In this document: positions 5,510-61,082 of the stretch, piece after piece
Position numbering within the stretch: position 1 is the stretch's first letter
How the letters are laid out: every line of letters begins with the position of its first letter
Assembly: GCA_951406725.2 (NCBI GenBank)
Contig: OX597822.1
Span: 88,846,001-88,910,000, forward strand
Reading direction: 5' to 3'
DNA length: 64,000 nt
From: Octopus vulgaris
Taxonomy: Eukaryota
Translations under genes and position numbers: made by a program
Notes under the pieces: model-generated
The model's input: the letters and a program-made list of their open reading frames with translations, nothing else
The model's database searches: none
Told to the model about the DNA's origin: nothing

Positions 5510-5636
5510 TTAAATATTATGATTAATACTTATGCATAGTTTTCTTTCTTTTACAGATTTTACATTGTATGTGTTCCAGAGAAAACAAATGAAAGTGCTG
5601 AAAGACCAATATTTTTGACATCAGAATTGTAGTACA

Positions 5637-7754
5637 ATGGGTGTCACAGGACTTGCCTCCTTTGTTAAATCACAGCAATGTTTTGATAGCAAATATAGGT
5701 TGCATGATTGCAAGATAGTTATTGACGCTAACAATTTGTATCATTTTATTTATTATCATCATAAAGTACCTTACCGATGTGGTGGAGATTATCATTTATT
5801 CGTTGCTAAAATCAAAATGTATTTTAAGACCTTTGAAACTTGCAATATCTCACCTTATCTTGTATTTGATGGTGGTTATGAAACTGATAATCGAAAATTA
5901 AATACATGCCTCTCTAGAGCTCGTCAACGCATATATATGTCCCAGTCTCTGGCACGAGGAGGATCTGGAAGTGTTACACCAGCTCTGACTTCTCAAACGT
6001 TTCTCAATGTTATAAAAGATCTTGGCATTCCTTGTGTTGTCGGAGATTTTGAAGCAGACAGCCAAACCATGCTTTTGGCTAACCAATGGAATTGTCCAGT
6101 GCTTAGCAACGACAGTGATTTTTACATTTATGATGTAACTGGAGGATTTATAATGTTGGACAGTGTGGATTACAACCCCAAATCATTTAAAGAAGAAAGT
6201 TCTGGCAAAACGTACAAGTTTTTGGAATGTCAAATTTATTTCTGCAAAAATTTCACTGATTTGTTTCCTGGACTGAATAAAAGTTTACTGCCACTTTTTA
6301 GTACACTTTGTGGGAATGATTATGTTAGTTCCAAAGGAATATTTGATAAATTTTTTTGCAATATGAAGAAAGCTCCAGATAATTTTGGTCAGAATATTGC
6401 TCGTCGCAAGCAACATGCTATGTTTCTTTCACTTTTATATTGGCTCCATAATCAAAGTTCCATTGAAGAAGCTATTACAAATATTTTGAATTTTTTCAAA
6501 ATTGCAGAGCGGAAGAAATTGCAAACATTAATAAGTAAATCAGTTACTAGTTATATTAGTGTGGAATCTTGTTTTGATATGAAAGAATATTTTGAAACGG
6601 ACAAGTTAGTCTTTAAATCACCAGGTTTCAAAAAGTTTTGTCACAACTGTATTCTACCAGAATGGTTCATTCACAGATTAAAAAGATGTCAACTTTCTGT
6701 ATCATTTCTTAATGTAGTGCGCTTACGGCGAATCATTCTAATGAGTCAAATTGAACATATGAGTTATCCATCTGTCTACACGTGTTCCACTTATATCAGA
6801 CAAGTTATTTATGGTATTTTACTTCTTGATAATGTTGAAAAAGAATCAATTAATAAATTATCTATTGAAGAATATGACAGAGATGGCTGTAACTATAAAA
6901 AGAAAAAAATTGATCCAGTTTTTACCATTCCAAACTTTGGGCCTCTCCCATCACTGAGTGACATTTCATCAGCCACTCTTGATATTAAACGCCAAATTAT
7001 GTTGTTAACCTTAGGTTCAGACTTGGAGTTTTTAAAAGAATTTCCTGACGAGTTAAAAATAGTTGCTATTACCATTGTGTATTGGGTGAAGAATGCTAAC
7101 CCTCAAATTCATAAAGCTATGGTGACAGCTTTGGTTGTATGCAATATATATTTGTGGATAAAAATTTCAAAGGATAAAACAGAGACAAAGAAAGTATTTC
7201 TTCAAAGTTCTGCTGGAAATCAGAAAAGTATGTACAAACTTATTGAAGGTGCAAGTAATGAAATTTTAAATCAAATTAATAAAAATCTTATAAAATTCTG
7301 TGGAAACCCATCATATGATTGGAAAACTAAAATTAATACCCCTGTGGTACATAACTTCAATCAGTTTCAAGTTACATTGCGCTATGTCTTACATTTGAAT
7401 CAGCTGCTTCAAGAACCTTTCTATGCAACAAGTCCCTCTTTCATATTTTCTGGAACATTTCTTTGCAATTTATTTCTTGAAATTTGTGGCCGTGCAAACC
7501 CTCAGGAATTCTTATCAAATTTGTTGGTTCCTGGTAGTGAGTTTGAATCGCTTTTTATTTCTTGTGATAATGCATTTCATTTGATTTTGAAACCATGCTA
7601 TATTGCAGAACGGACTATGAAAAAAAAATCTCAGAAAAAGCGAAAGAAAAAATCTCAGAATATACATATGACTAAGCATGAAAACTCAGATTTATCTGAC
7701 AATAATTCTGTGGTGAATTTTGATACTGAAAACAGGTTTAATGTCCTTGCCTAA
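5637..7754 (+). CDS. ASTE1: Protein asteroid homolog 1 (XPG/FEN1-like PIN-domain nuclease), CDS in one exon
   Basis: 705-aa open ORF with MGVTGL, IDANNL, VFDGG, EAD, LSNDSDF and GNDY motifs and a basic C-terminal tail. Acceptor AG at 5555-5556; AATAAA at 7787. Confidence 0.92.
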   Translation: MGVTGLASFVKSQQCFDSKYRLHDCKIVIDANNLYHFIYYHHKVPYRCGGDYHLFVAKIKMYFKTFETCNISPYLVFDGGYETDNRKLNTCLSRARQRIYMSQSLARGGSGSVTPALTSQTFLNVIKDLGIPCVVGDFEADSQTMLLANQWNCPVLSNDSDFYIYDVTGGFIMLDSVDYNPKSFKEESSGKTYKFLECQIYFCKNFTDLFPGLNKSLLPLFSTLCGNDYVSSKGIFDKFFCNMKKAPDNFGQNIARRKQHAMFLSLLYWLHNQSSIEEAITNILNFFKIAERKKLQTLISKSVTSYISVESCFDMKEYFETDKLVFKSPGFKKFCHNCILPEWFIHRLKRCQLSVSFLNVVRLRRIILMSQIEHMSYPSVYTCSTYIRQVIYGILLLDNVEKESINKLSIEEYDRDGCNYKKKKIDPVFTIPNFGPLPSLSDISSATLDIKRQIMLLTLGSDLEFLKEFPDELKIVAITIVYWVKNANPQIHKAMVTALVVCNIYLWIKISKDKTETKKVFLQSSAGNQKSMYKLIEGASNEILNQINKNLIKFCGNPSYDWKTKINTPVVHNFNQFQVTLRYVLHLNQLLQEPFYATSPSFIFSGTFLCNLFLEICGRANPQEFLSNLLVPGSEFESLFISCDNAFHLILKPCYIAERTMKKKSQKKRKKKSQNIHMTKHENSDLSDNNSVVNFDTENRFNVLA

Positions 7755-12222: not shown

Positions 12223-12600
12223 AGGCAAGGTTGTGTGATAAGAAGCTTGCTTCTCAACCACACGGTTCTGGGTTCAGTCCCACTGCATTGGCAAGTGTCT
12301 TTTACTATAGTCTCTGGCCAACCAAAGCCTTCTGAGTGGATTTGGTGGACAGAAACTGAAAGAAGCCTGTCATATGTATATGTGTGTATATATATATGTG
12401 TATGTGTGTATTTGCCCCAATCACCATTTGACAACTGGTGGTGGTGTGTTTACATCTTCATAACTTTGTGGTTTGGCAAAAAAGACCAGTAGAATAAGTT
12501 CTAGGCTTTAAAAAAATAAGTCCTAGGGTTGATTTCTTTGACTAAAACCCTTTAAGGCTGTGCCCCAGCATGCCCACAATTAAATGAAACAAGTAAAGGA
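12223..12600 (+). mobile_element. tRNA-derived SINE (family B)
   Basis: gggttcagtccc box B and gtggatttggt...gaaactgaaagaagcc body, shared with 16143-16472, 16794-17191 and 58556-58985. Confidence 0.85.
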
Positions 12601-12893
12601 TATTGTTATCCTTAGGGATGGTCATATTTTGCCAATTCAACACACACACTATAAATTTGCTCTTCACTTCAGCTTTATTATTATTATCATTTTAGTTTCT
12701 TTGTGTCAAATCTCTTTCATCACATATTCTGTGACCTCTTCAATGACTCTTTATCCCACGTATTTCCTCTTGTTCTGCTTATTCCATTTGGAAGAGTTTT
12801 GACAAAGAAACTAAATAAAAATAAAGCTGAAGTGAAGATAAATAGTGCGTGTGTTTAATTGGCAAAAGATGACTATCACCACACATAACAATA
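12601..12893. mobile_element. Palindromic MITE
   Basis: tattgttat...gtcatattttgccaatt...cttcacttcagctttatt is mirrored by aataaagctgaagtgaag...aattggcaaaagatgac...ataacaata. Confidence 0.65.
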
Positions 12894-12912
12894 TCTGTTC
12901 CAACACATAATT

Positions 12913-15318: not shown

Positions 15319-16142
15319 TAACATGACCTTTCTATATTCCAAGGTATCTATGATTTTATACAGTTCTGAGATTAAGTCAGAAAATTATTCTGTTATAAGT
15401 GATGTATAGCTTTTAAAAAAAAGTTTGCAAACAAAACAGTACATACAGTCATTGCTACTTTAAGTAAGCCAACCAAGATCTCATCACATTCTGGCAATTT
15501 TTTTCAATCTTTTTTCACCATGTATACTTGAAAAACATCTGTTTTGCTACTTGAAAATCCTACTAGATTAGTTAAAAACATAAACAGTTCCTTTGCATTT
15601 TTTAATAAAACCGATATCTTGCATTGAATAATTTTGTATAAAATCTTTATCAACTGTTATGTGCCAGTTTGCGACGTCACTGGATTCTTTGTAATCACTA
15701 AATTGGTTCATGTTTCTACCTTGACTTTTCATGCTCTGCAATTAATCCCCTACATTCACCAATTGTGTCAAAAGTGTCAACTGTGGATTAAAAATTGCTA
15801 GAAAGAACTATCATCGTCTGTGTACTATGATTTGTTTCTGTCAGCTGTTGGTGTTGATAAACTTAGAATTGGAAAGTAGTTTAATAGCTTTTTGACCTTT
15901 AGAAATGTTGTCAGATCGCTTTTTCTTGAGTTTGTGGTTTTGCTATCCACTTAAGTACTTTTGTGAATCTCATTGTTATTTTCCTTGGGAATAACAAAGA
16001 GATAAAAATAGCAAAACAAAGCTAGATTATTCTAGGTGAATAAGAATGCACTGTGAAAGAGTTAATTAATCTTTATTAGTGCACACACTTGTTATGCTAA
16101 TTTGACTGACCAGTTCAGCTAAGTCCTTATCTTTATACACAC

Positions 16143-16472
16143 AGGCACAGGAGTGGCTGTATGGTAAGTAGCTTGCTTACCAACCACATGGTTCTGGGTT
16201 CAGTCCCACTGCATGGCATGTGTCTTCTATAGCCTTGGGCCGACCAAAGCCTTCTGAGTGGATTTGGTAGATGGAAACTGAAAAAAGCCTGTTGTATATA
16301 TACATGTGTGTGTGTGTATATTTGTGTAGCTGTGTTTGTCCCCCCACACACACACACACACGCACTATTGCTTGACAAACGATGCTGGTGTGTTTAAAAG
16401 AGACTGATAGTATAAGTACTAGGTGGTGCTCCAGCATAACCACAGTCAAATGACTGAAACAAATAAAAGAAT
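16143..16472 (+). mobile_element. tRNA-derived SINE (family B)
   Basis: ggcacaggagtggctgtatggtaagtagcttgc head. Confidence 0.85.
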
Positions 16473-16793
16473 ACCTATAATTTACTAATCAGTCAATGGA
16501 CAGAAGATGTTTTCTATGCTTATTATAAAGCACATTCTAAATAATTTTAAAATAATATAGTGTAATGTACGATGAATTAATAAAGTAATTAGTAGCAGCC
16601 CACCACACGTCACAATATCAACTTGATAATCACATAGCAAGGGCAATCAAATTCACATATTAAACATTTTTCTATAATAAAAACAAATAAAGATAGGAAC
16701 ACAATAAACACACTTTCCTCTGAGACCAGTGATTCCCAATCTTTTCTATTGCTCTGGCACATGGCTCAGTGGATATTATTGGGCTCACAATCA

Positions 16794-17191
16794 ATACTCT
16801 TTTACTCTTTTATTCTTTTGTTTCAGTCATTTGACTGTGGCCATGCTGGAGCACCGCCTTTCGTCGAGCAAATCGACCCCAGGTCTTATTCTATGTAAGC
16901 CTAGTACTTATTACATCGGTCTATTTTTGCCGAACTGCTAAGTTACAGGGACGTAAACACACCAGCATCGGTTGTCAGGCGATGTTGGGGGGACAAACAC
17001 ATACATACATATACATATATATATATACGACGGGCTTCTTTCAGTTTCCGTCTACCAAATCCACTCACAAAGCTTTGGTCGGCCTGAGGCTATAGTAGAA
17101 AACACTTGCCCAAGGTGCCATGCAGTGGGACTGAACCCGGAACCATGTGGTTGGTAAGCGAGCTACTTACCACACGGCCACTCCTGCGCCT
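16794..17191 (-). mobile_element. tRNA-derived SINE (family B)
   Basis: Reverse complement of the family B sequence; full length. Confidence 0.88.
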
Positions 17192-18233
17192 GTAATAGGT
17201 AACAAGTTTTATCTCATGTTGCTCCAGTTCACTCAACTGTAGAAATGAATTGCGACATCACTGTTGCTAAGCTGCATTAGCCTTTGCCTTTTCTTTGGAC
17301 ATCAGTGATATGGAGAGTGGTATATATGGGCAAAAACTGGTCTTCCATAAATAATCTTGCCTGGACTTGTGCTTTGGAGGGGAACTTTCTCGGTGCAATC
17401 CCATGGCCATTCATGACCGAAGTGGGGTTTTTACCCTTTCTTTTTACCTTCTATAATAGTTGAACTTTGATACTCCTCACAAAAGTAATATCACATTTGA
17501 AGATAAAAAGAAAGTTAATTTTCTAATAGCATTTTTAAAAATGATAAAATACAGAAGATGGGTGAACAAACAACTCAAAAAATAAGCTTCCACTTTAGTG
17601 CATAAAATGCAAATGTAAATTGTGTGATTAGCAAGAAAAGAAATGTAAATAATGCAATTAGTCACAATTGTGAAAATAAAATTCAAGAACCTCTTTGTGG
17701 TTGTTTCACATTAATGACTTCATTGAGAAGTGGAATTTTCTTGCTGATTGTGATCTGCTGGTTGGGCTGTGGATTCAGGCAATTCCTAAATTTTGTCTTG
17801 GCAAGAGAGGATTGAATTCAAATTCATACAAGTTGTCATAACAAATAGAATGAGGACACAGAGTGCTTTACCAAAAAGTCTTGGGAGCATATCCAGTGCT
17901 GAACATCAAAACTTCTTCAAAGCTTTGCTTTGAAATTGCAATTCAAGAGCTTGATATTTTTGCAAGTAAATAAGATCTTTCAGTTCATCATTATCTGAAA
18001 TTTTCTCCAGATTGTAGAAATATGGGTTCATAACCATTTATTCTGAAATTTCCAGGGTGTCAGCAGTAAAATAGTCATCAAACAGTTTTGACATCGTTTC
18101 CAAATGAGTGCCAATTGCTTCATACATTTTAGAGATGTGGATCCAACACCATTAATTGTCTCTTCATCCTACAGCACCAAACAGGTAGCTTTTCTTTGAA
18201 GCCATTTAACTTTTCTTGAGCCTTCAATATAGT

Positions 18234-37300: not shown

Positions 37301-40300
37301 GTGTGCTTGTATATAGAAATAAAAACAATACAATATAAATAATAAAGACAAAAAATTATAAAAATTAAGGTTGAAAGGTGATATGGAAGTTAATGCAATA
37401 TAAATGGTGCAGTTACAAGTAAAAATGAAAATGAAATAAGGTTGCTTGTTGCAGGAGGTGTAGAGGCAGTCAATTGGAGGAGGGGGTTGTGTTTAGTCCA
37501 TAGGGGATAGTTGTCCGTAGATTAAAGATATACCACTGTTCCAGGCAGAGTTGTGGATCCGTGGTGTAGAGCGAGGCCAAAGACAGATGTTAGAGGGGAA
37601 TGGTTGGCCAAATGGAAGTGGCAGGTGATGCTTAGATGTTCAGTGAACCGGTCAGCCAGTCAGCAGCCCATCTGACCTACATATAGTTTACCAAAGAGGT
37701 TGCATCTAATACAGTATATGAGGCTAGAAGTTCAAGAGAAGAAATTTGTTATGTGAAGAGTTTGCTGATATAACAGTGCGAGAAGTAGTGTTGGTGATGA
37801 AGGGGCAAGTGTTGCAGTGAGATCTGGAGCACGGGAAGGATCCATGTGGGGCTGGGGGGGGGGGGAGAAGAGAAGGTGCTACAGACCAGAAGATCACATA
37901 GTTTCTGGGTGCATTTAAAGGACAAGGGTGGGTTGGGAAAATGGTGCGGGTGGTGGGATTGAGCTTGAGACGATGGAAGGCCCATAGTATCCTCTGACGA
38001 AAGGGTAGAGTGGAGGGGTGGAAAAGGAGGGGAAAGGGGTGTGGTTAGGGGATTGGTGAGGGGAAGGAAAAAGGGTGGTGGTGTGATCGATTCGTCGAGC
38101 ACGGGCACAGGCATTTTGGACATGGGTTGAGGGGTACCCGCGATGCCTGAGCAGGCGGGCAAGGTATTGGGACTAGGTCTCAAAATCCTGGTCTCAGCTG
38201 CACAAGCGTCGGAGGCGGAGGAACTGGGAGTAGGGGATGGCCCGTTTGGTGTGGAAGATATGGCAGGAGGAGAAGTTGAGGTACAGCTGGGAATCTGTGG
38301 GTTTGAAGAAGGCAGAGGTGGTGAGAGTGTGGGAGGGGTGGTCAATAGTAAGAGAGATATCAAGGAAGTTAACAGAGGTATTAGAGATAGTAGAAGTGAA
38401 TTGGAGAGAAGGGTGGAAGTTAGAGAGGAAAGAGATGAAGTATCAGAGTTGTTCACGGGTGAGGGAGGTGGCACCTATACAGTCTTTGTAGCTCTGGGGT
38501 CGTCCCAGAGAATTGGGAGAATGCTTGGGTCTCAATGTGACCAACAAAGAGGTTGGCGAAATTGGGGCCCATTCTCGATCCCATCACGACCCCAGACACC
38601 TGTTGGTAGGTTTACCCGGCAAACGTAAAACAGTTGAGGGTGAGGACGAGCTCTGCCTGGTAGAGAAGGGTGGATGTGTGGGGTCAGGGCGACAGTCGAA
38701 GAATTGGAGGGCTAAGAGACTGTCGTGGGAAATCACCGTGTATAGGGATTTGATGTCCAAGGTGAAGAGGAGGTATGAGGGGCCGGGAGGGAAGGGAAAG
38801 GAATTGAAGAGGCAAAGGGCATGATTAGTGTCATGTATGTGGAATGGGAGGGCAGCAACTAAAGGGGACAGGATGCAGTCAAGGTATTTGGAAATGAGTT
38901 TGGTGGAACAATTACAGGCAGAAACGATAGGGCGGCCAGGGTTGTTGGGTTTATGTATTTTGGGAAGGAAATAGATGGTGGAGGTACAGGCTGTTCGGAA
39001 GATGAGGTTGGTGGCGGTGGGGAGGAGAGCAGAAGAGAAGATGAGGTCATGGATGGTGGAGGACACTTGCTGTTGGTGGGAGGAGGTGATAGGCAAGGGG
39101 ATTTTGAAGTTGGCTGAGCGCTTCCTGTATAGCTCCATGCGCCACACCACTACTGCTCCATCTTTGTCTGCCAGTTTGATGATGATGTCGTTGTGGCGAC
39201 AGAGGAGGTCACGAAGGGCAATTAATTCAGCAAGGGTGAGGTTGGCTCGGAGGGATCTTTTTTGAAAATGAATCGGTTTACCAACGCATTTCAGTAGTGC
39301 ACGAACAAATCTAGGTTACTGAATTAGCCAGGAGGCAGCATCCAGTTGGATGGGCGGCGCCCCAGCTCTGAAAAGCAATCTCAATTGTCGTGAAGTTGTG
39401 TAGACGTGTGGAAAAATGTACATATTTTGATGCGGCGCAGGAACTGGCTCATATCGGTGCAGGTCTCAAATTCGTCGCAGTGGGGTGTGAGAGGCGTGAA
39501 GCAGAGTTCCCTACTGAGGAGTGAGCGCTCAGCAGCGGAGAGGGGGAGGTTGCGTGGTATAGTAACAACAGTGCGAGGGAGCAGAATGGTGGGGTGGGTG
39601 GAGTCAGGAAGAGGGTGTTCTGAGGGGTGGGGAGGAGGGTTGGAATGGGTGGGGTAGGGGTGGGAAAGTCAGGATGGGGTGTGTGTGATGTGTAGGGTGC
39701 ACGGGGATGGGGCGTGGTGGATGCGGGATTGGGAGGGGTCGGGAGAGCTGAAGGGGAGGGTGTAGGGTGTGGGAGAGGAAAGAGGTGAAAGGTTGAGGAG
39801 GTGGTGGAGTTTTTTGCTTTTTGTGTGTGTGAGGAAATTGTGAAGTTGGTGGTTGAGATTAAGAATGAAGCGGAGAATGGGTTGGGTGGAAGGCAGAGGG
39901 AGGGGAGGAGGAGGTAAGCCTGGGGAAGTTGGTGGTCAAGAAAATGAAGGAGGAAGCAGGTGGAGGTCAGGCATGGTGAGAGGGTGTGAATGTCCGTGTA
40001 GGTGTAAATGGTGGCGACAAAAAGAGAAAAGTGAAAAGAGGACGAGAAAAAGTGGAAGAGTCACAGACAAATTTTTGATGATTTCCAATCACAATTAGAG
40101 TGGCGTACTTTGGATGAATGGTAACAGTAATCCGCAGGTGTAAAAATTCCAGGAATTGGTTATCTAAGTCAGTCAGAAGGCCAGGGTCCATGTGAGCGTG
40201 CGGTATATATAGTTAATCCAAACATGAACAAAGAGAAAACACAACAACGTGAGGATGTGTTACAAGTATAGTGTTGTTGGATGCTCAGGATTGGAAAGAA

Positions 40301-40309
40301 AGAATGAGG

Positions 40310-40345
40310 ATTTAACGTTTCGAGTGGAGCTCTTTGGTCAGAAAC
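40310..40345 (-). ncRNA. Degenerate minimal hammerhead in the Penelope pseudo-LTR
   Basis: gttt-CTGACCA-aa-gagctccactc-GAAA-cg-TT-aaat; G8 is lost. Confidence 0.55.
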
Positions 40346-40599
40346 ATAGAAAAAGGAAAGATCCAAGGAAAGAAAGATGGAGAAAGAAAATTGCCAATAA
40401 TACACACACAGTCACATATTGAAATGACCGGAAGGGAATGGGTGAAGAAAAAGTTCTTTTAAAGACAGGAGAGTGCAAGAGAAGGAGGTATGTGTGTGGT
40501 TGGGCTAGTATCCTTTAAGGTCATAGGAAGAATTTGTAGTAAGAATTTTGGCAGGAGTGGCTGCCTGTTTGTCTACATATACATGTTCCTAGGTGAATG

Positions 40600-41200
40600 G
40601 TCAGTAGAAGTTACTTGTAGTTTGAAGTATGTGTGTGTGTGCATCTATGTATATGTAGTGTGTTTTGTTTGCAATGTGTGTGTATGTGTGTGGAGAGTAA
40701 CTGCACTTTACTCTCTGTGTGTGTGCTTGTATGTGCGTATGTGTGTGTGTACTTGTATGTATAATTGTGCGTGTATGTATGTGGTGTGTGGGTTCATTTG
40801 CATGTGTGTGCGTGTGTATATACATGTGTGAGTATGTGTATTTTGTGTGTGCATGTGTGTGAACGAGGGTATAGGTGCGTTTTTTGCGCGTGTATGTATG
40901 TGCGTGTACATGTGAATCTGCATGTAGTTGTGTGCGCGTATGTGGGTGTATATACGTGGGATTGTGACTGTTAGGTATGTGTGCATGCGTGTATGCATAT
41001 ATTGTGTATGTATGTGTGTGTATGTGAATTTGTATGTGTCTGTGTGTGTAGGGGGTTGTGTGGGATAGGTATCTGTGCATTCTTGTATGTGTGTGTGCAC
41101 GTGGGTATATGTGTGTATATGTGTTTGTATATGTGCATGTATGTGTGTGTGGGAGGTATATGTGCATTCGTGGATATGTACGTATGTATGTGTGTGTATA
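40600..41200. repeat. Degenerate (GT/GTAT)n microsatellite within the Penelope UTR
   Basis: Directly visible. Confidence 0.85.
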
Positions 41201-42831
41201 TAGAAATAAAAACAATAATTTATAGAAACAATAAAATATAAAAATTAAGGTTGAAAGGAGATAAGGAAGTTAATGCAATATAAATGGCGCAATTACAGGT
41301 AAAAAGGAAAAATGAGATAAGGTTGCTTGTTGCAGGAGGTGTAGAAGCAGTCAATAGGACAGTTGTGTTTAGTCCGTAAGGGATAGTTGTTCATAGATTA
41401 AAGATATACCGCTGTTCCAGGCGGAGTCATGTGTGTGTGGATGGGGGTAGGGTGAGGCCAAAGACGGAGATGTTAGAGGGGGAATGGTTGGCCAAGCGAA
41501 AGTGACGGGCGACGGGTATGTTCGGACGTAGACAAACATCCCTTAGATGTTCGGTGACCTGGTCAGCCAGTTGGCGCGCGTTTGACCTACATATAGTTTA
41601 CCACAGAGGTTGCATTTAATACAGTATATGAGGTTAGAAGAAGTGCAAGAGAAGGAATTTGTTATGTGAAGAGCTTGCTGATTAGAACCAGTGAGAGAAG
41701 TAGTGTTAGTGATGAACGGGCAGGTGTTGCAGTGGGATCTGGAGCATGGGAAGGATCCGTGTGGGGCTGGGGGGGTGGAGAGGAGAAGGTGCTATGGACC
41801 AGAAGATCACGTAGGTTCCGGGTGCGTTTAAAGGACAACCCTCCCTCCCCAACCCCACACACATGCCGCCGCCTGGAACAGCAGTAAGAAATTTACTTCC
41901 CAGTCACATGGTTTTGGATTCATTCCCACTGCATGGCACCCTGGGCAAATGTCTTCTATAACCTTCACCAACCCAAGTCCTATGAAAGAAATTTTGTGGA
42001 TGAAAACTGAAAGAAGACTATGACTTTTTTTTTTGTATGTATGTTTGTGTCTTCATTACAGAAGTGGTGTTATTTGTTTTCACTCTTCTAAGGAAACGTG
42101 TTAAGCCATTTGGAAATTGCTTGGAAATGTGAAGGTTGGCAACAGCAAGAGCATTTGCCCATAGAAAATATGCCTCAAACTTTGTCTGACCTATGCAAGC
42201 ATGAAAAATTGGACATTATGATGATTATGATGAAATTTTATTGTTTCTAATTGAACTGTACTACTTTATCTCCACACAGTAATTTGTCAGCCATTTAACA
42301 TTAACAGGATATGTTATTCCACTTCTGAAATATTTCAAATGTGCCATTTCCAACCATCTCCAGTTCATTTCACATTCTTTTTTTTCTCTTGTAATCTGTC
42401 TTAGGATTCAGAACTTAATATTTATTTAACCCTTTTGATACCAGCCCATCTGAGACCATCCTTAAGTCTGTGATAAAAATCTTACTGTTTTAAAGTCATC
42501 TAAATTAAAACCATCTGTCAGAGTTTCATGTTAACCTATGTTCCAAATGTTAACTATGAAATGTCAGATATTTTACTAAATTCTTAATTATTTTCAGAAT
42601 TAATTGAAACAAAGATAGTGTATTTCAACAGAAATATTTTTTTAAAATGGGTTAACCCTTCAATTACAATTCTTTTATTCCAAAGTGCTACTTAATATTG
42701 CAGAAGTTATTTTTCTTAAAGTTCCTCTAAATATCTGTTTTAAAACTGTTTTAAATGTAAACAGACTTAAATTGTAATATTTGTCATTAAATCCATGGTA
42801 ATTATGATTTTAAAGTGTTTTAATGATATGA

Positions 42832-54278: not shown

Positions 54279-55114
54279 TTGTGTGTGTGAATATGTGATT
54301 AGCAACAGAAGCAATCTTTGCAACAAATATTAATTAGCACATCCAAACTAACTTGAATGTGTTGATTATAATGCCTAGGAATGTGTTTCTAGATGACAAA
54401 TGTGAAAAAAAATCATCACAGATATTGGTTGACAATATTTCATCAGCACCAGCAGATGATACTTTTGTATCAAATAACTTCACCATATTATGGTCATCAC
54501 ATGCAGATTTCTCAGGACATTTACTGCAATCCTAGGCATTATAAACAACACATCCAAGTTAATTTAGATGGGCTAATTTCTAACACACACACACACACAA
54601 GTGCATGTGAATTTGTGGATGCCAGTGTTTGTTAATCTTTATAGGACTTAGAGGAGGAAGAAGAGTAGCTGTTAGTCTTTTCAGGATGTCTGTGATTGGC
54701 GTGAAATTAACATCAAACAGGCACCTGACCCCAGCGCTTGCTATAGTGTAAACTCCAGTAAATGTTATGGCTAAATCAGTTGATAGTTTAGCTCAACTAT
54801 GTAATCAATAGATTTTGTGCCAAAGATTGTTCCTAAGAGAATATGCGACTGAGATGTAGTCTTTGTGGTGGTAGCTTGGATCTTCCTTCTCCATTCTTGC
54901 ATCAACAGTTTCTTTGGTTATCTTTGGAACAGAAGCTATCCATTTTGTGATTGAGTGTATTAAGTTTTGTAACCAAATTTCTATTGAAATGCGTGCCTTT
55001 GTTTCAATTAATTTTGGAAATAATGAAGAATTTTGTAAAATAACTTTAAGTTGATGTTTGGAACATAAATTAATGTGAAATTTTGATGGAAGGTTTTAAT
55101 TCAGATAACTTTAA

Positions 55115-58555: not shown

Positions 58556-58774
58556 CTCTTACTCTTTACTCTTTTACTTGTTTCAGTCATTTGACTGCAG
58601 CCATGCTGGAGCACCGCCTTTAGTCGAGCAAATCGACCCCGAGACTTATTCTTTGTAAGCCCAGTACTTATTCTATCGGTCTCTTTTTGCCGAACCGCTA
58701 AGTGACGGGGACGTAAACACACCAGCATCGGTTGTCAAGCAATGCTAGGTGGACAAACACACACACAAACATAT

Positions 58775-58810
<36 letters not shown>

Positions 58811-58985
58811 ATACATATATACGACAGGCTTCTTTCAGTTTCCGTCTACCAAATCCACTCACAAGGCATTGGTCGGCCCGAGGCTATAGCAGAAGGCACT
58901 TGCCCAAGATGCCACGCAGTGGGACTGAACCCGGAACCATGAAGTTGGTAAGCTAGCTACTTACCACACAGCCACTCCTGCACCT
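58556..58985 (-). mobile_element. tRNA-derived SINE (family B)
   Basis: Closely similar to 16794-17191. Confidence 0.88.
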
Positions 58986-58991
58986 ATATAC

Positions 58992-59026
<35 letters not shown>

Positions 59027-59080
59027 TATATAAATATATGAAAGAATGGAGTTGAACGACGAATTAACAAAATTCCTTTA

Positions 59081-59163
59081 TTTTCGACATATGTTTCGAA
59101 GGCTGCATATTCCTAATTGCGAAGGAATAAGGAGTATATTATGCCGCTTTCTCATCAGGAAAA
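59081..59163 (-). ncRNA. Type I hammerhead ribozyme, intact core (left arm of palindrome A)
   Basis: ttttc-CTGATGA-gaaagcggcata...tatgcagccttc-GAAA-catatg-TC-gaaaa; GUC cleavage triplet. Confidence 0.85.
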
Positions 59164-59281
59164 GCAAGGAACTTATGTCAACATCAAGATGCACAAAAAA
59201 CTTTTAGATGACTGCTCATACGGAGCCCATAGTGAAAAAAAAAGTTTTTTGTGCATCTTGATGTTGACATAAGTTCCTTGC

Positions 59282-59364
59282 TTTTCCTGATAAGAAAGCG
59301 GCATAATATACTCCTTATTCCTTCGCAATTAGGAATATGCAGCCTTCGAAACATATGTCGAAAA
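59282..59364 (+). ncRNA. Hammerhead motif with G8A substitution (right arm of palindrome A)
   Basis: Same as the left arm but the core reads CTGATAA (A at 59292). Confidence 0.8.
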
Positions 59365-59569
59365 TAAAGGAATTTCGTTAATTCGTCGTTCAACTCCATT
59401 CTTTTATATATTTATATTTTTTTAAAAAAACATACAAATTTCCACACGAAAGCACGTAACTTCAAACGTGTCTTCTCTGATGTGAATTTGCTACCCAGGT
59501 ATCGGTTAACCGAATTATCCATAACAAGATAATTCATTCAACTACTCAAATATTCATATATATATACAT

Positions 59570-59617
<48 letters not shown>

Positions 59618-59681
59618 ACACACACACACACATATATATATACATACACATACACACACACACATATATATATATATACAT

Positions 59682-59716
<35 letters not shown>

Positions 59717-59734
59717 CATACACCCACACATAAC

Positions 59735-59799
<65 letters not shown>

Positions 59800-59869
59800 G
59801 ATAAAACGGTAAGATAACAAAAGAAAGAAAGAGACCTCAATATTATGTAAATAGAGGAAATTTATCTAT

Positions 59870-60178
59870 ACAATTATATGTTACATTACTCAATAGTCAA
59901 GATAAAACTCTGAGTTTCAGATGCCGAAGTGGGAATCCACGACATCTCTTCGGTTATCTGGCTATTTGAAAACACTATATCTGGATGCATATCACATAGA
60001 TTATTCTATGAAAAATACACCGATCCCATCAAAGGAATTTTACTCTAAGAAACTTCTACAGAAAAGATATAGCGTTTTCAAATAGCCAAATAACCAAAGA
60101 GATGTCGTGGATTCCCACTTCGGCATCTGAAACTCAAGAGTTTTATCTTGACTATCGAGTAATGTAACATATAATTGT
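59870..60178. repeat. Palindrome B (~113-bp arms) with a hammerhead-like motif in each arm
   Basis: 59870-59982 vs 60065-60178. Minus strand 59900-59959 reads agataa-CCGAAGA-gatgtcg...cggcatc-t-GAAA-ctcagag-TT-ttatct. Confidence 0.9.
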
Positions 60179-60512: not shown

Positions 60513-60557
<45 letters not shown>

Positions 60558-60635
60558 ATAATACAGTGATTGTTTTTTATCAGGAACAAAATGTTTTATA
60601 GGACTGCTATAGAAGTGCTCAATTGAATGAGACAA

Positions 60636-61074
60636 ATATATCAACCTAAGGTTACAGAACAGACAAATGCAAGGTCATCCACGTAACATTTCATATCTCG
60701 AACATTTAATCATAGAATATACATTTATGACATCACGGAAGATGAAACATAACTCATCTGTACAAGCATATAAGAAAGTGCGAGAAAAATGTGTGAATAC
60801 AGTTCATCACGGTTAATGTTCATACTTTAGCGATTAAGAAATATATATGTTGTAATGTTTTTTAAAAAAATATATATTTCTTAATCGCTAAAGTATGAAC
60901 ATTAACCGTGATGAACTGTATTCACACATTTTTCTCGCACTTTCTTATATGCTTGTACAGATGAGTTATGTTTCATCTTCCATGATGTCATAAATGTATA
61001 TTCTATGATTAAATGTTCGAGATATGAAATGTTACGTGGATGACCTTGCATTTGTTTGTTCTGTAACCTTAGGT

Positions 61075-61082
<8 letters not shown>
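60636..61082. repeat. Near-perfect palindrome C (213-bp arms, 21-bp loop)
   Basis: 60636-60848 vs 60870-61082; 2 mismatches by eye. Confidence 0.95.

What the first reader, a model, noticed from the sequence alone, without database searches (positions are those of the whole stretch)
59028..59417. Palindromic element presenting a hammerhead on each strand
Seen: 178-bp arms, each with a full hammerhead including an extended stem I (ttcctt/aaggaa). On either strand the antisense arm is transcribed first, so it could pair with and mask the ribozyme. Inference: an inverted pseudo-LTR insertion, or a self-masking ribozyme switch.
Basis: partly seen in the sequence, partly recalled or inferred. Interest (0 to 1): 0.7.

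Follow-up and report, generated by a model that had tools for sequence, protein, structure and literature searches.

The report
Two-armed Hydra-type Penelope retroelement stump
This mirror-image stretch is one of hundreds of truncated insertions of a known kind of jumping gene, likely made by copying the ribozyme-bearing end of its RNA onto both sides of a cut; one of its two ribozymes carries a core mutation, so it is an ordinary footprint rather than a switch.

Summary
The palindrome is real (178-bp arms, 3 mismatches, 34-nt spacer). It is a truncated, two-armed (inverted pseudo-LTR) insertion of a Hydra-type Penelope-like element (PLE). A 32-mer of it occurs 703 times in the genome, and long copies encode reverse transcriptase plus GIY-YIG endonuclease with Hydra motifs. 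The + arm hammerhead has a private G8-to-A core change, and the unit runs on to 59560 as an unpaired tail of about 140 nt. The hairpin beats the ribozyme fold by about 125 kcal/mol, so this is permanent masking, not a switch. A fold-back artefact is excluded by anatomy; independent reads were uninformative. In 84 sampled loci, 53 are two-armed, and all 53 pair one tail-less end with one tailed end (one tailed-tailed pair was seen outside that sample). This favours twin priming from two RNA start sites. Inner ends cluster about 150 nt upstream of the ribozyme cut, not at it. The architecture is published, and this scan already noted it in many other genomes. Small new points: a Hydra-type family with a long tail and no CxCX5C linker that still lands in (TA)n.

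The parts
59028..59238 (-). Arm A: truncated copy of the element's pLTR; outer end at site A (no tail), inner end at the family's 5'-end hot spot
   Evidence: 98% identical to a natural long copy, reference positions -200..+10 (L008); hot spot
59070..59174 (-). Type I hammerhead with intact core CUGAUGA/GAAA, 2-bp stem III with self-complementary ACAUAUGU, long stem II, extended stem I; predicted cut after 59086
   Evidence: motif scan, constrained fold; activity untested
59206..59239 (.). 34-nt 'spacer': the inner part of arm A that arm B lacks, plus the junction in a run of 9 A (4+4 templated, 1 extra)
   Evidence: sequence, family alignment; junction found once in the genome
59240..59560 (+). 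Arm B: second truncated pLTR copy carrying the tail; outer end at site B
   Evidence: 97% identical to reference -167..+144; the end extends a few bases further by comparison with full-length copies
59271..59375 (+). Second hammerhead, core CUGAUAA (G8 to A at 59292), likely inactive
   Evidence: loss of activity inferred from the C3-G8 pair (G8C data in PMC11167929)
59418..59560 (+). Unpaired tail of about 140 nt; in partial tandems this is the 5' leader that precedes the ORF's ATG
   Evidence: L087, L090, L093, L100, L101, L105, L108 show ribozyme, tail, then ATG
58985..59027 (.). Left (TA)n/(CA)n microsatellite target
   Evidence: 27 nt shared with the right flank, a possible target duplication that cannot be told from plain repeat
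59561..59800 (.). Right (TA)n/(CA)n microsatellite target

Best explanation
This is a truncated, two-armed insertion of a Hydra-type Penelope-like retroelement in a (TA)n/(CA)n microsatellite, likely made by twin priming on the element's RNA. Shown: both arms are copies of the element's hammerhead-bearing end; long family members carry an RT + GIY-YIG ORF; two-armed copies join one tail-less arm (site A) to one tailed arm (site B, about 135-140 nt further on) at variable inner junctions. Inferred: the element's protein nicks both strands of the microsatellite. One 3' end primes cDNA at A and the other at B, both AU-rich and able to pair with (TA)n. Both cDNAs run through the uncut hammerhead and stop early, often at a likely RNA 5' end about 150 nt upstream of the cut, and their 3' ends are joined, often through 1-7 nt of overlap. 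The two hammerheads are passengers. Any read-through RNA is predicted to fold into a 178-bp hairpin that blocks both, and the + copy has since decayed.
For: 703 exact hits of a 32-mer. GIY-YIG Pfam match E 3e-4, 21.4 bits, just under the 22.6 cut-off. RT motifs and DKT, RW, CxxC and CxH in long copies, which match the Hydra definition. 53 of 84 loci two-armed, 53 of 53 A+B; single-armed loci 15 A, 15 B, 1 other; p about 1e-16 against independent choice. Arm A reaches further 5' in 30 of 53, arm B in 19, equal in 4, against simple fold-back. Junction overlap of at least 1 nt in 36 of 53 (BLAST-based). 31 of 105 inner ends between -300 and -20 fall in a 20-nt window. No pile-up at the ribozyme cut: 4 hits against 8 and 1 at control offsets. 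B ends followed by (TA)4+ in 39 of 50, A ends by a microsatellite in 41 of 64. A PLE protein cuts and extends both strands, starts at two RNA sites and does not need ribozyme cleavage in vitro (PMC11167929).
Against: No independent read or contig bridges this junction. Pfam and PDB searches did not recognise the RT by profile; the RT call rests on motifs and 34-48% identity to unnamed relatives. The Hydra CxCX5C linker is absent. One B+B pair exists (L011/L166), one A+B call (L137) has a third piece that could be read as A+A, and several B partners are only 23-50 nt. Twin priming is inferred from genome scars only. PMC3846280 proposes self-priming on an antisense template instead.
Confidence: 0.9

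Rival explanations
1. Same element, but the mirror arm arises by fold-back or self-priming: one cDNA (or an antisense RNA) folds back and is copied toward its start.
For: Proposed for head-to-head Penelope repeats in PMC3846280. Arm B reaches further 5' in 19 of 53 pairs. Short overlaps at junctions fit template switching.
Against: Only arm B has the tail, so the copied arm A should be nested inside B. Arm A reaches further 5' in 30 of 53 pairs and at this locus.
Confidence: 0.06
2. A selected self-masking ribozyme switch in a host or element transcript.
For: The antisense arm precedes the ribozyme on each strand and is predicted to mask it. The - strand core is intact.
Against: Energy gap of 125-130 kcal/mol. 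Private G8A and two more private changes in arm B. Junction unique; arm lengths vary from locus to locus. Metazoan PLE hammerheads with weak stem III cleave poorly as monomers (PMC4209133). No transcript evidence was obtained.
Confidence: 0.02
3. Read fold-back or assembly artefact.
For: No public contig or read bridged the junction in the runs laid.
Against: The mirror stops at the family's site A. Each arm holds family sequence the other lacks (34 nt inside, about 140 nt outside), so neither can be a copy of the other. The arms differ at 3 sites. The same geometry recurs at 53 loci with other junctions. Those runs may come from other individuals, and palindromes assemble poorly.
Confidence: 0.02

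Closest known systems
Hydra clade of C-terminal EN+ Penelope-like elements (Craig et al. 2021, PMC8557442)
   Same: Single RT + C-terminal GIY-YIG ORF, RW(K)-like motif, DKT, CxxC and CxH around E/N, hammerhead near the 3' end, (TA)n targets; Penelope-13_HM has an inverted truncated copy with a hammerhead on both strands.
   Different: CxCX5C linker replaced by about 150 aa of Asn-rich sequence; about 500 nt longer than most listed Hydra elements; hammerhead with a stem II region of about 54 nt rather than the short stems in File S2. By eye it is not the listed Hydra-1_Obim, which has a different hammerhead and N-terminus.
Inverted-pLTR insertion unit with optional tail (Pen2a_Av, PMC3846280; Fig. 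2 of PMC8557442)
   Same: Truncated inverted copy joined head to head; tail at one end only; N-rich inserts between RT and EN are also reported there.
   Different: Tail is about 135-140 nt rather than 30-40; here both arms are truncated to the pLTR; target duplication cannot be resolved in the microsatellite.
PAc (Poseidon, Anolis) in vitro mechanism (PMC11167929)
   Same: Two RT start sites bounding the tail, both strands cut and extended, AT-rich targets, uncut RNA used.
   Different: PAc starts in an AC-rich stem-loop inside the ORF, 7 nt range quoted, with no homology to the target. Here both sites lie upstream of the ATG and end in ATAT that matches (TA)n.
Non-LTR retrozymes (bioRxiv 10.64898/2026.07.22.740005)
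   Same: Non-coding, type I hammerhead, PLE-derived.
   Different: Retrozymes are direct tandem repeats; this is inverted and rebuilt at each insertion.

Membership tests
EN+ Penelope-like element | One ORF with RT and GIY-YIG endonuclease | tested here: met
   741- and 833-aa frames in L075 and L077 with QFD, MGS, YRDD, FLDV and Y..G motifs; GIY-YIG Pfam E 3e-4, below the curated cut-off; RT not recognised by Pfam
EN+ Penelope-like element | Partial tandems that form pLTRs upstream of the ORF | tested here: met
   7 of 25 ORF-start loci show ribozyme-pLTR, tail, then ATG; L076 holds a 1.4-kb direct repeat
EN+ Penelope-like element | Inverted truncated copy with a tail at one end | tested here: met
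   53 of 84 loci; long copies L031, L075 and L082
EN+ Penelope-like element | Hammerhead in the pLTR | tested here: met
   motif and constrained fold; no Rfam hit
Hydra clade | RWK-type motif and DKG changed to DKT | tested here: met
   RIRWLAFF and DKTRN; the motif is RWL, not RWK
Hydra clade | CxxC and CxH beside conserved E and N of the endonuclease | tested here: met
   CGVCNSE...LIN...RCMH
Hydra clade | CxCX5C linker | tested here: not met
   0 of 20 translated stretches (12 distinct copies) have it; unnamed relatives P0001, P0004, P0006 and P0007 do
Hydra clade | (TA)n insertion bias | tested here: met
   39 of 50 B ends
Hydra clade | RT phylogeny within the Hydra clade | not tested
   Named Hydra sequences were seen only in a supplement and compared by eye; hence 'Hydra-type', not a filed member
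Active type I hammerhead | Intact CUGANGA/GAAA/UH core | tested here: met
   - arm only
Active type I hammerhead | Intact core in the + arm | tested here: not met
   G8A at 59292
Active type I hammerhead | Self-cleavage | not testable with these tools
   no assay; no excess of copies beginning at the cut
Non-LTR retrozyme | Direct tandem units each with a hammerhead | tested here: not met
   arms are inverted

The most novel reading that the evidence does not exclude
The family records a strictly asymmetric insertion machine. One uncut RNA folds a leader domain closed by a helix that hides the ATG (predicted in 7 of 8 tandem copies) and presents sites A and B as single-stranded AU stretches in the same multi-branch loop. 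A protein dimer primes once at each site, which gives the 53-of-53 A+B rule. (TA)n targeting persists without the CxCX5C linker, so it would come from primer-RNA pairing or from the endonuclease, not from the linker as proposed.
Probability: 0.3. Interest if true: 0.55.

Novelty: new member of a known kind. Interest (0 to 1): 0.26.

Why it matters
The locus itself is an ordinary decaying insertion. The family is a tidy natural data set for the open question of how PLEs build inverted ends and one-sided tails: its long tail makes the two start sites easy to tell apart, and the near-strict A+B pairing constrains models. Loss of the linker with retained (TA)n targeting bears on the proposed role of that linker.

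Tried and rejected
Rfam: no hammerhead hit; the hairpin hits to miRNA models are all below gathering scores and reflect the palindrome. Reads: raw run X24 (about 3% read) laid 3 reads, none on the element; contigs of X1, X2, X3, X4 and X10 covered family sequence, but no listed piece bridged the junction (most pieces not shown). This is uninformative, since the runs may be other individuals. No RNA run held more than a small share on record as RNA, so expression was not tested. Pfam and PDB did not name the RT. A tight pattern for tail-to-ORF read-through found only 1 copy because that copy has a private deletion; replaced by a DNA search. The unconstrained fold of one arm is not the hammerhead (-24.6 against -20.6 kcal/mol), and the two-molecule co-fold did not give a clean double hammerhead. 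The leader helix shows only one-sided (G-U) changes, no double compensations, in 8 related copies, so it is a prediction. The lack of inner ends at the cut is biased because the sampling pattern spans the cut; some searches were run to replace it. A target-site duplication could not be resolved. MITE and retrozyme readings rejected: junctions and arm lengths are locus-specific.

Full report
Observation. The arms 59028-59205 and 59240-59417 align over 178 bp with 3 mismatches around a 34-nt spacer. A type I hammerhead layout lies in each arm, with stem I, core, a long stem II and a 2-bp stem III whose sequence ACAUAUGU is self-complementary. Only the - strand core is intact. The + strand core reads CTGATAA, G8 to A at 59292. 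All three arm mismatches are departures of the + arm from the family: at those sites the fetched loci show the - arm letter in 172 of 173, 145 of 148 and 102 of 102 pattern matches (some loci were fetched twice). G8C abolishes cleavage in a PLE hammerhead (PMC11167929); that G8A does the same is my inference from the C3-G8 pair. Rfam does not detect either ribozyme.

It is a repeat. A DNA search gave 1367 first-look candidates, of which 40 were scored, all 99-100% identical. A 32-mer occurs 703 times, the reversed control 0 times. The element does not end at 59417: the right arm runs on as family sequence to about 59560, and the spacer is the inner part of the left arm. The genome is a 2.8-Gb, microsatellite-rich animal assembly. 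That it looks like an octopus is my recall from its SINEs and was not tested.

The parent. Copies that extend upstream reach a GIY-YIG domain (Pfam E 3e-4, just under the cut-off) and an RT with QFD, MGS, YRDD and FLDV motifs in single frames of 741 and 833 aa. Seven of 25 ORF-start loci are partial tandems in which ribozyme and tail lead to the ATG, so the tail is the next unit's 5' leader. The protein has RW, DKT, CxxC and CxH as defined for the Hydra clade. It lacks the CxCX5C linker in 12 of 12 distinct copies, which carry about 150 aa of Asn-rich sequence instead. By eye it differs from the listed Hydra-1_Obim. No tree with named Hydra sequences was built, so I call it Hydra-type.

Geometry. 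I fetched all 84 loci behind the first 100 of the 703 hits (C1 and part of C2). 53 are two-armed, tail-out. All 53 pair an arm ending at site A with one ending at site B, whereas single-armed loci split 15 A, 15 B, 1 other (p about 1e-16 against independent choice). Caveats: L137 has a third piece that could be read as A+A, and some B partners are 23-50 nt. Among the 30 best-hit loci, 16 are two-armed by my reading, 15 A+B and one B+B (L011, confirmed as L166). Arm A reaches further 5' in 30 pairs, arm B in 19, equal in 4. Fold-back of one cDNA would need B always to reach further, so two separately primed cDNAs fit better. Junctions overlap by at least 1 nt in 36 of 53, are flush to 3 nt apart in 8, and hold longer inserts in 9 (BLAST end points, so approximate). 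Of 105 inner ends between -300 and -20, 31 fall within -205..-186, 8 of them exactly at -201, the A of TCATT, an initiator-like word (consensus recalled). This locus's left arm ends at -200. Genome-wide there is no excess of copies starting at the ribozyme cut: 4 hits against 8 and 1 at control offsets. This fits uncut RNA as the template, as in vitro for PAc.

Switch or artefact. The full hairpin folds at -299 and -302 kcal/mol, against -173 and -172 with the downstream ribozyme forced, so masking would be effectively permanent. With a mutated core, a junction unique in the genome and variable arm lengths, nothing points to selection. A fold-back artefact cannot give two arms that each hold family sequence the other lacks. 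Public reads and contigs neither confirmed nor contradicted the junction.

Leader helix. The 25 nt just before site A are complementary to the ATG region. A helix closing a domain of about 250 nt is in the best fold of 7 of 8 tandem copies. It has pairing probability 0.99 or more in the 6 copies where it could be scored, and fold z-scores run from -1.5 to -6.0 against 30 shuffles. Only one-sided changes were seen, so it remains a prediction. Sites A and B lie in unpaired AU-rich parts of that domain.

Literature. PMC8557442: passages, section 11, supplement parts 1, 2 and 52 and searched rows; the figures were not seen. PMC11167929: parts 1-2 of 4. PMC4209133 and PMC3846280: passages. The retrozyme preprint: part 1 of 5; its supplements were not requested. 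[quoted passage not shown] Searches turned up no counted A+B rule or twin-priming account for PLEs; the one hit was a review seen as a listing only, and subscription papers are not covered. The scan's own notes hold 191 similar findings in at least 29 genomes; none resembled this sequence.

Verdict. A real but ordinary PLE footprint from a Hydra-type family that I did not find in the lists I read, with modest value as mechanistic evidence.

Noticed in passing
window 59800-60178: A second two-armed insertion of another Hydra-like family (1022 first-look candidates). The tail of about 58 nt is on the left arm. The family-wide hammerhead core reads CCGAAGA (16 of 19 matches), with U4 changed to C. 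Partner arms mostly stop at one site, with one tailed-tailed pair; RT frames lie in L169 and L171.
   Followed up: partly
window 60556-61082: A third palindrome (216-bp arms, 15-nt spacer) between (TA)n runs, with about 80 nt extra on the left arm only. No intact hammerhead core was found by the scan; a CAGATGA word may be a decayed one.
   Followed up: no
L075:4512-6734, L077: CxCX5C linker replaced by about 150 aa of Asn-rich sequence while (TA)n targeting persists.
   Followed up: partly
L087, L090, L096, L100, L101, L105, L108 (HHR to ATG): Predicted long-range helix that pairs the sequence 3' of the ribozyme with the ATG region.
   Followed up: partly
window 59445-59460 vs L087: The window's subfamily lacks about 19 nt between two short direct repeats in the tail that full-length tandems retain.
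   Followed up: no
window 58557-58980: A SINE-like dispersed repeat abuts the left microsatellite; inverted copies also lie at 16141-17193.
   Followed up: no
window 5619-7751 (+): A 711-aa stop-free frame in one exon whose start resembles XPG/PIN-like nuclease (Asteroid-type) proteins; the label is recalled and was not searched.
   Followed up: no
window 38587-39315 (-): RT fragment with an IYFLPKIHK..PGRPIVS motif, resembling another PLE clade (recalled), next to a strongly G-skewed stretch at 38000-42000.
   Followed up: no
window 12599-12895, 54332-54578, 586-906: Older, diverged inverted repeats; the last has TAACCC telomere-like units in its arms.
   Followed up: no
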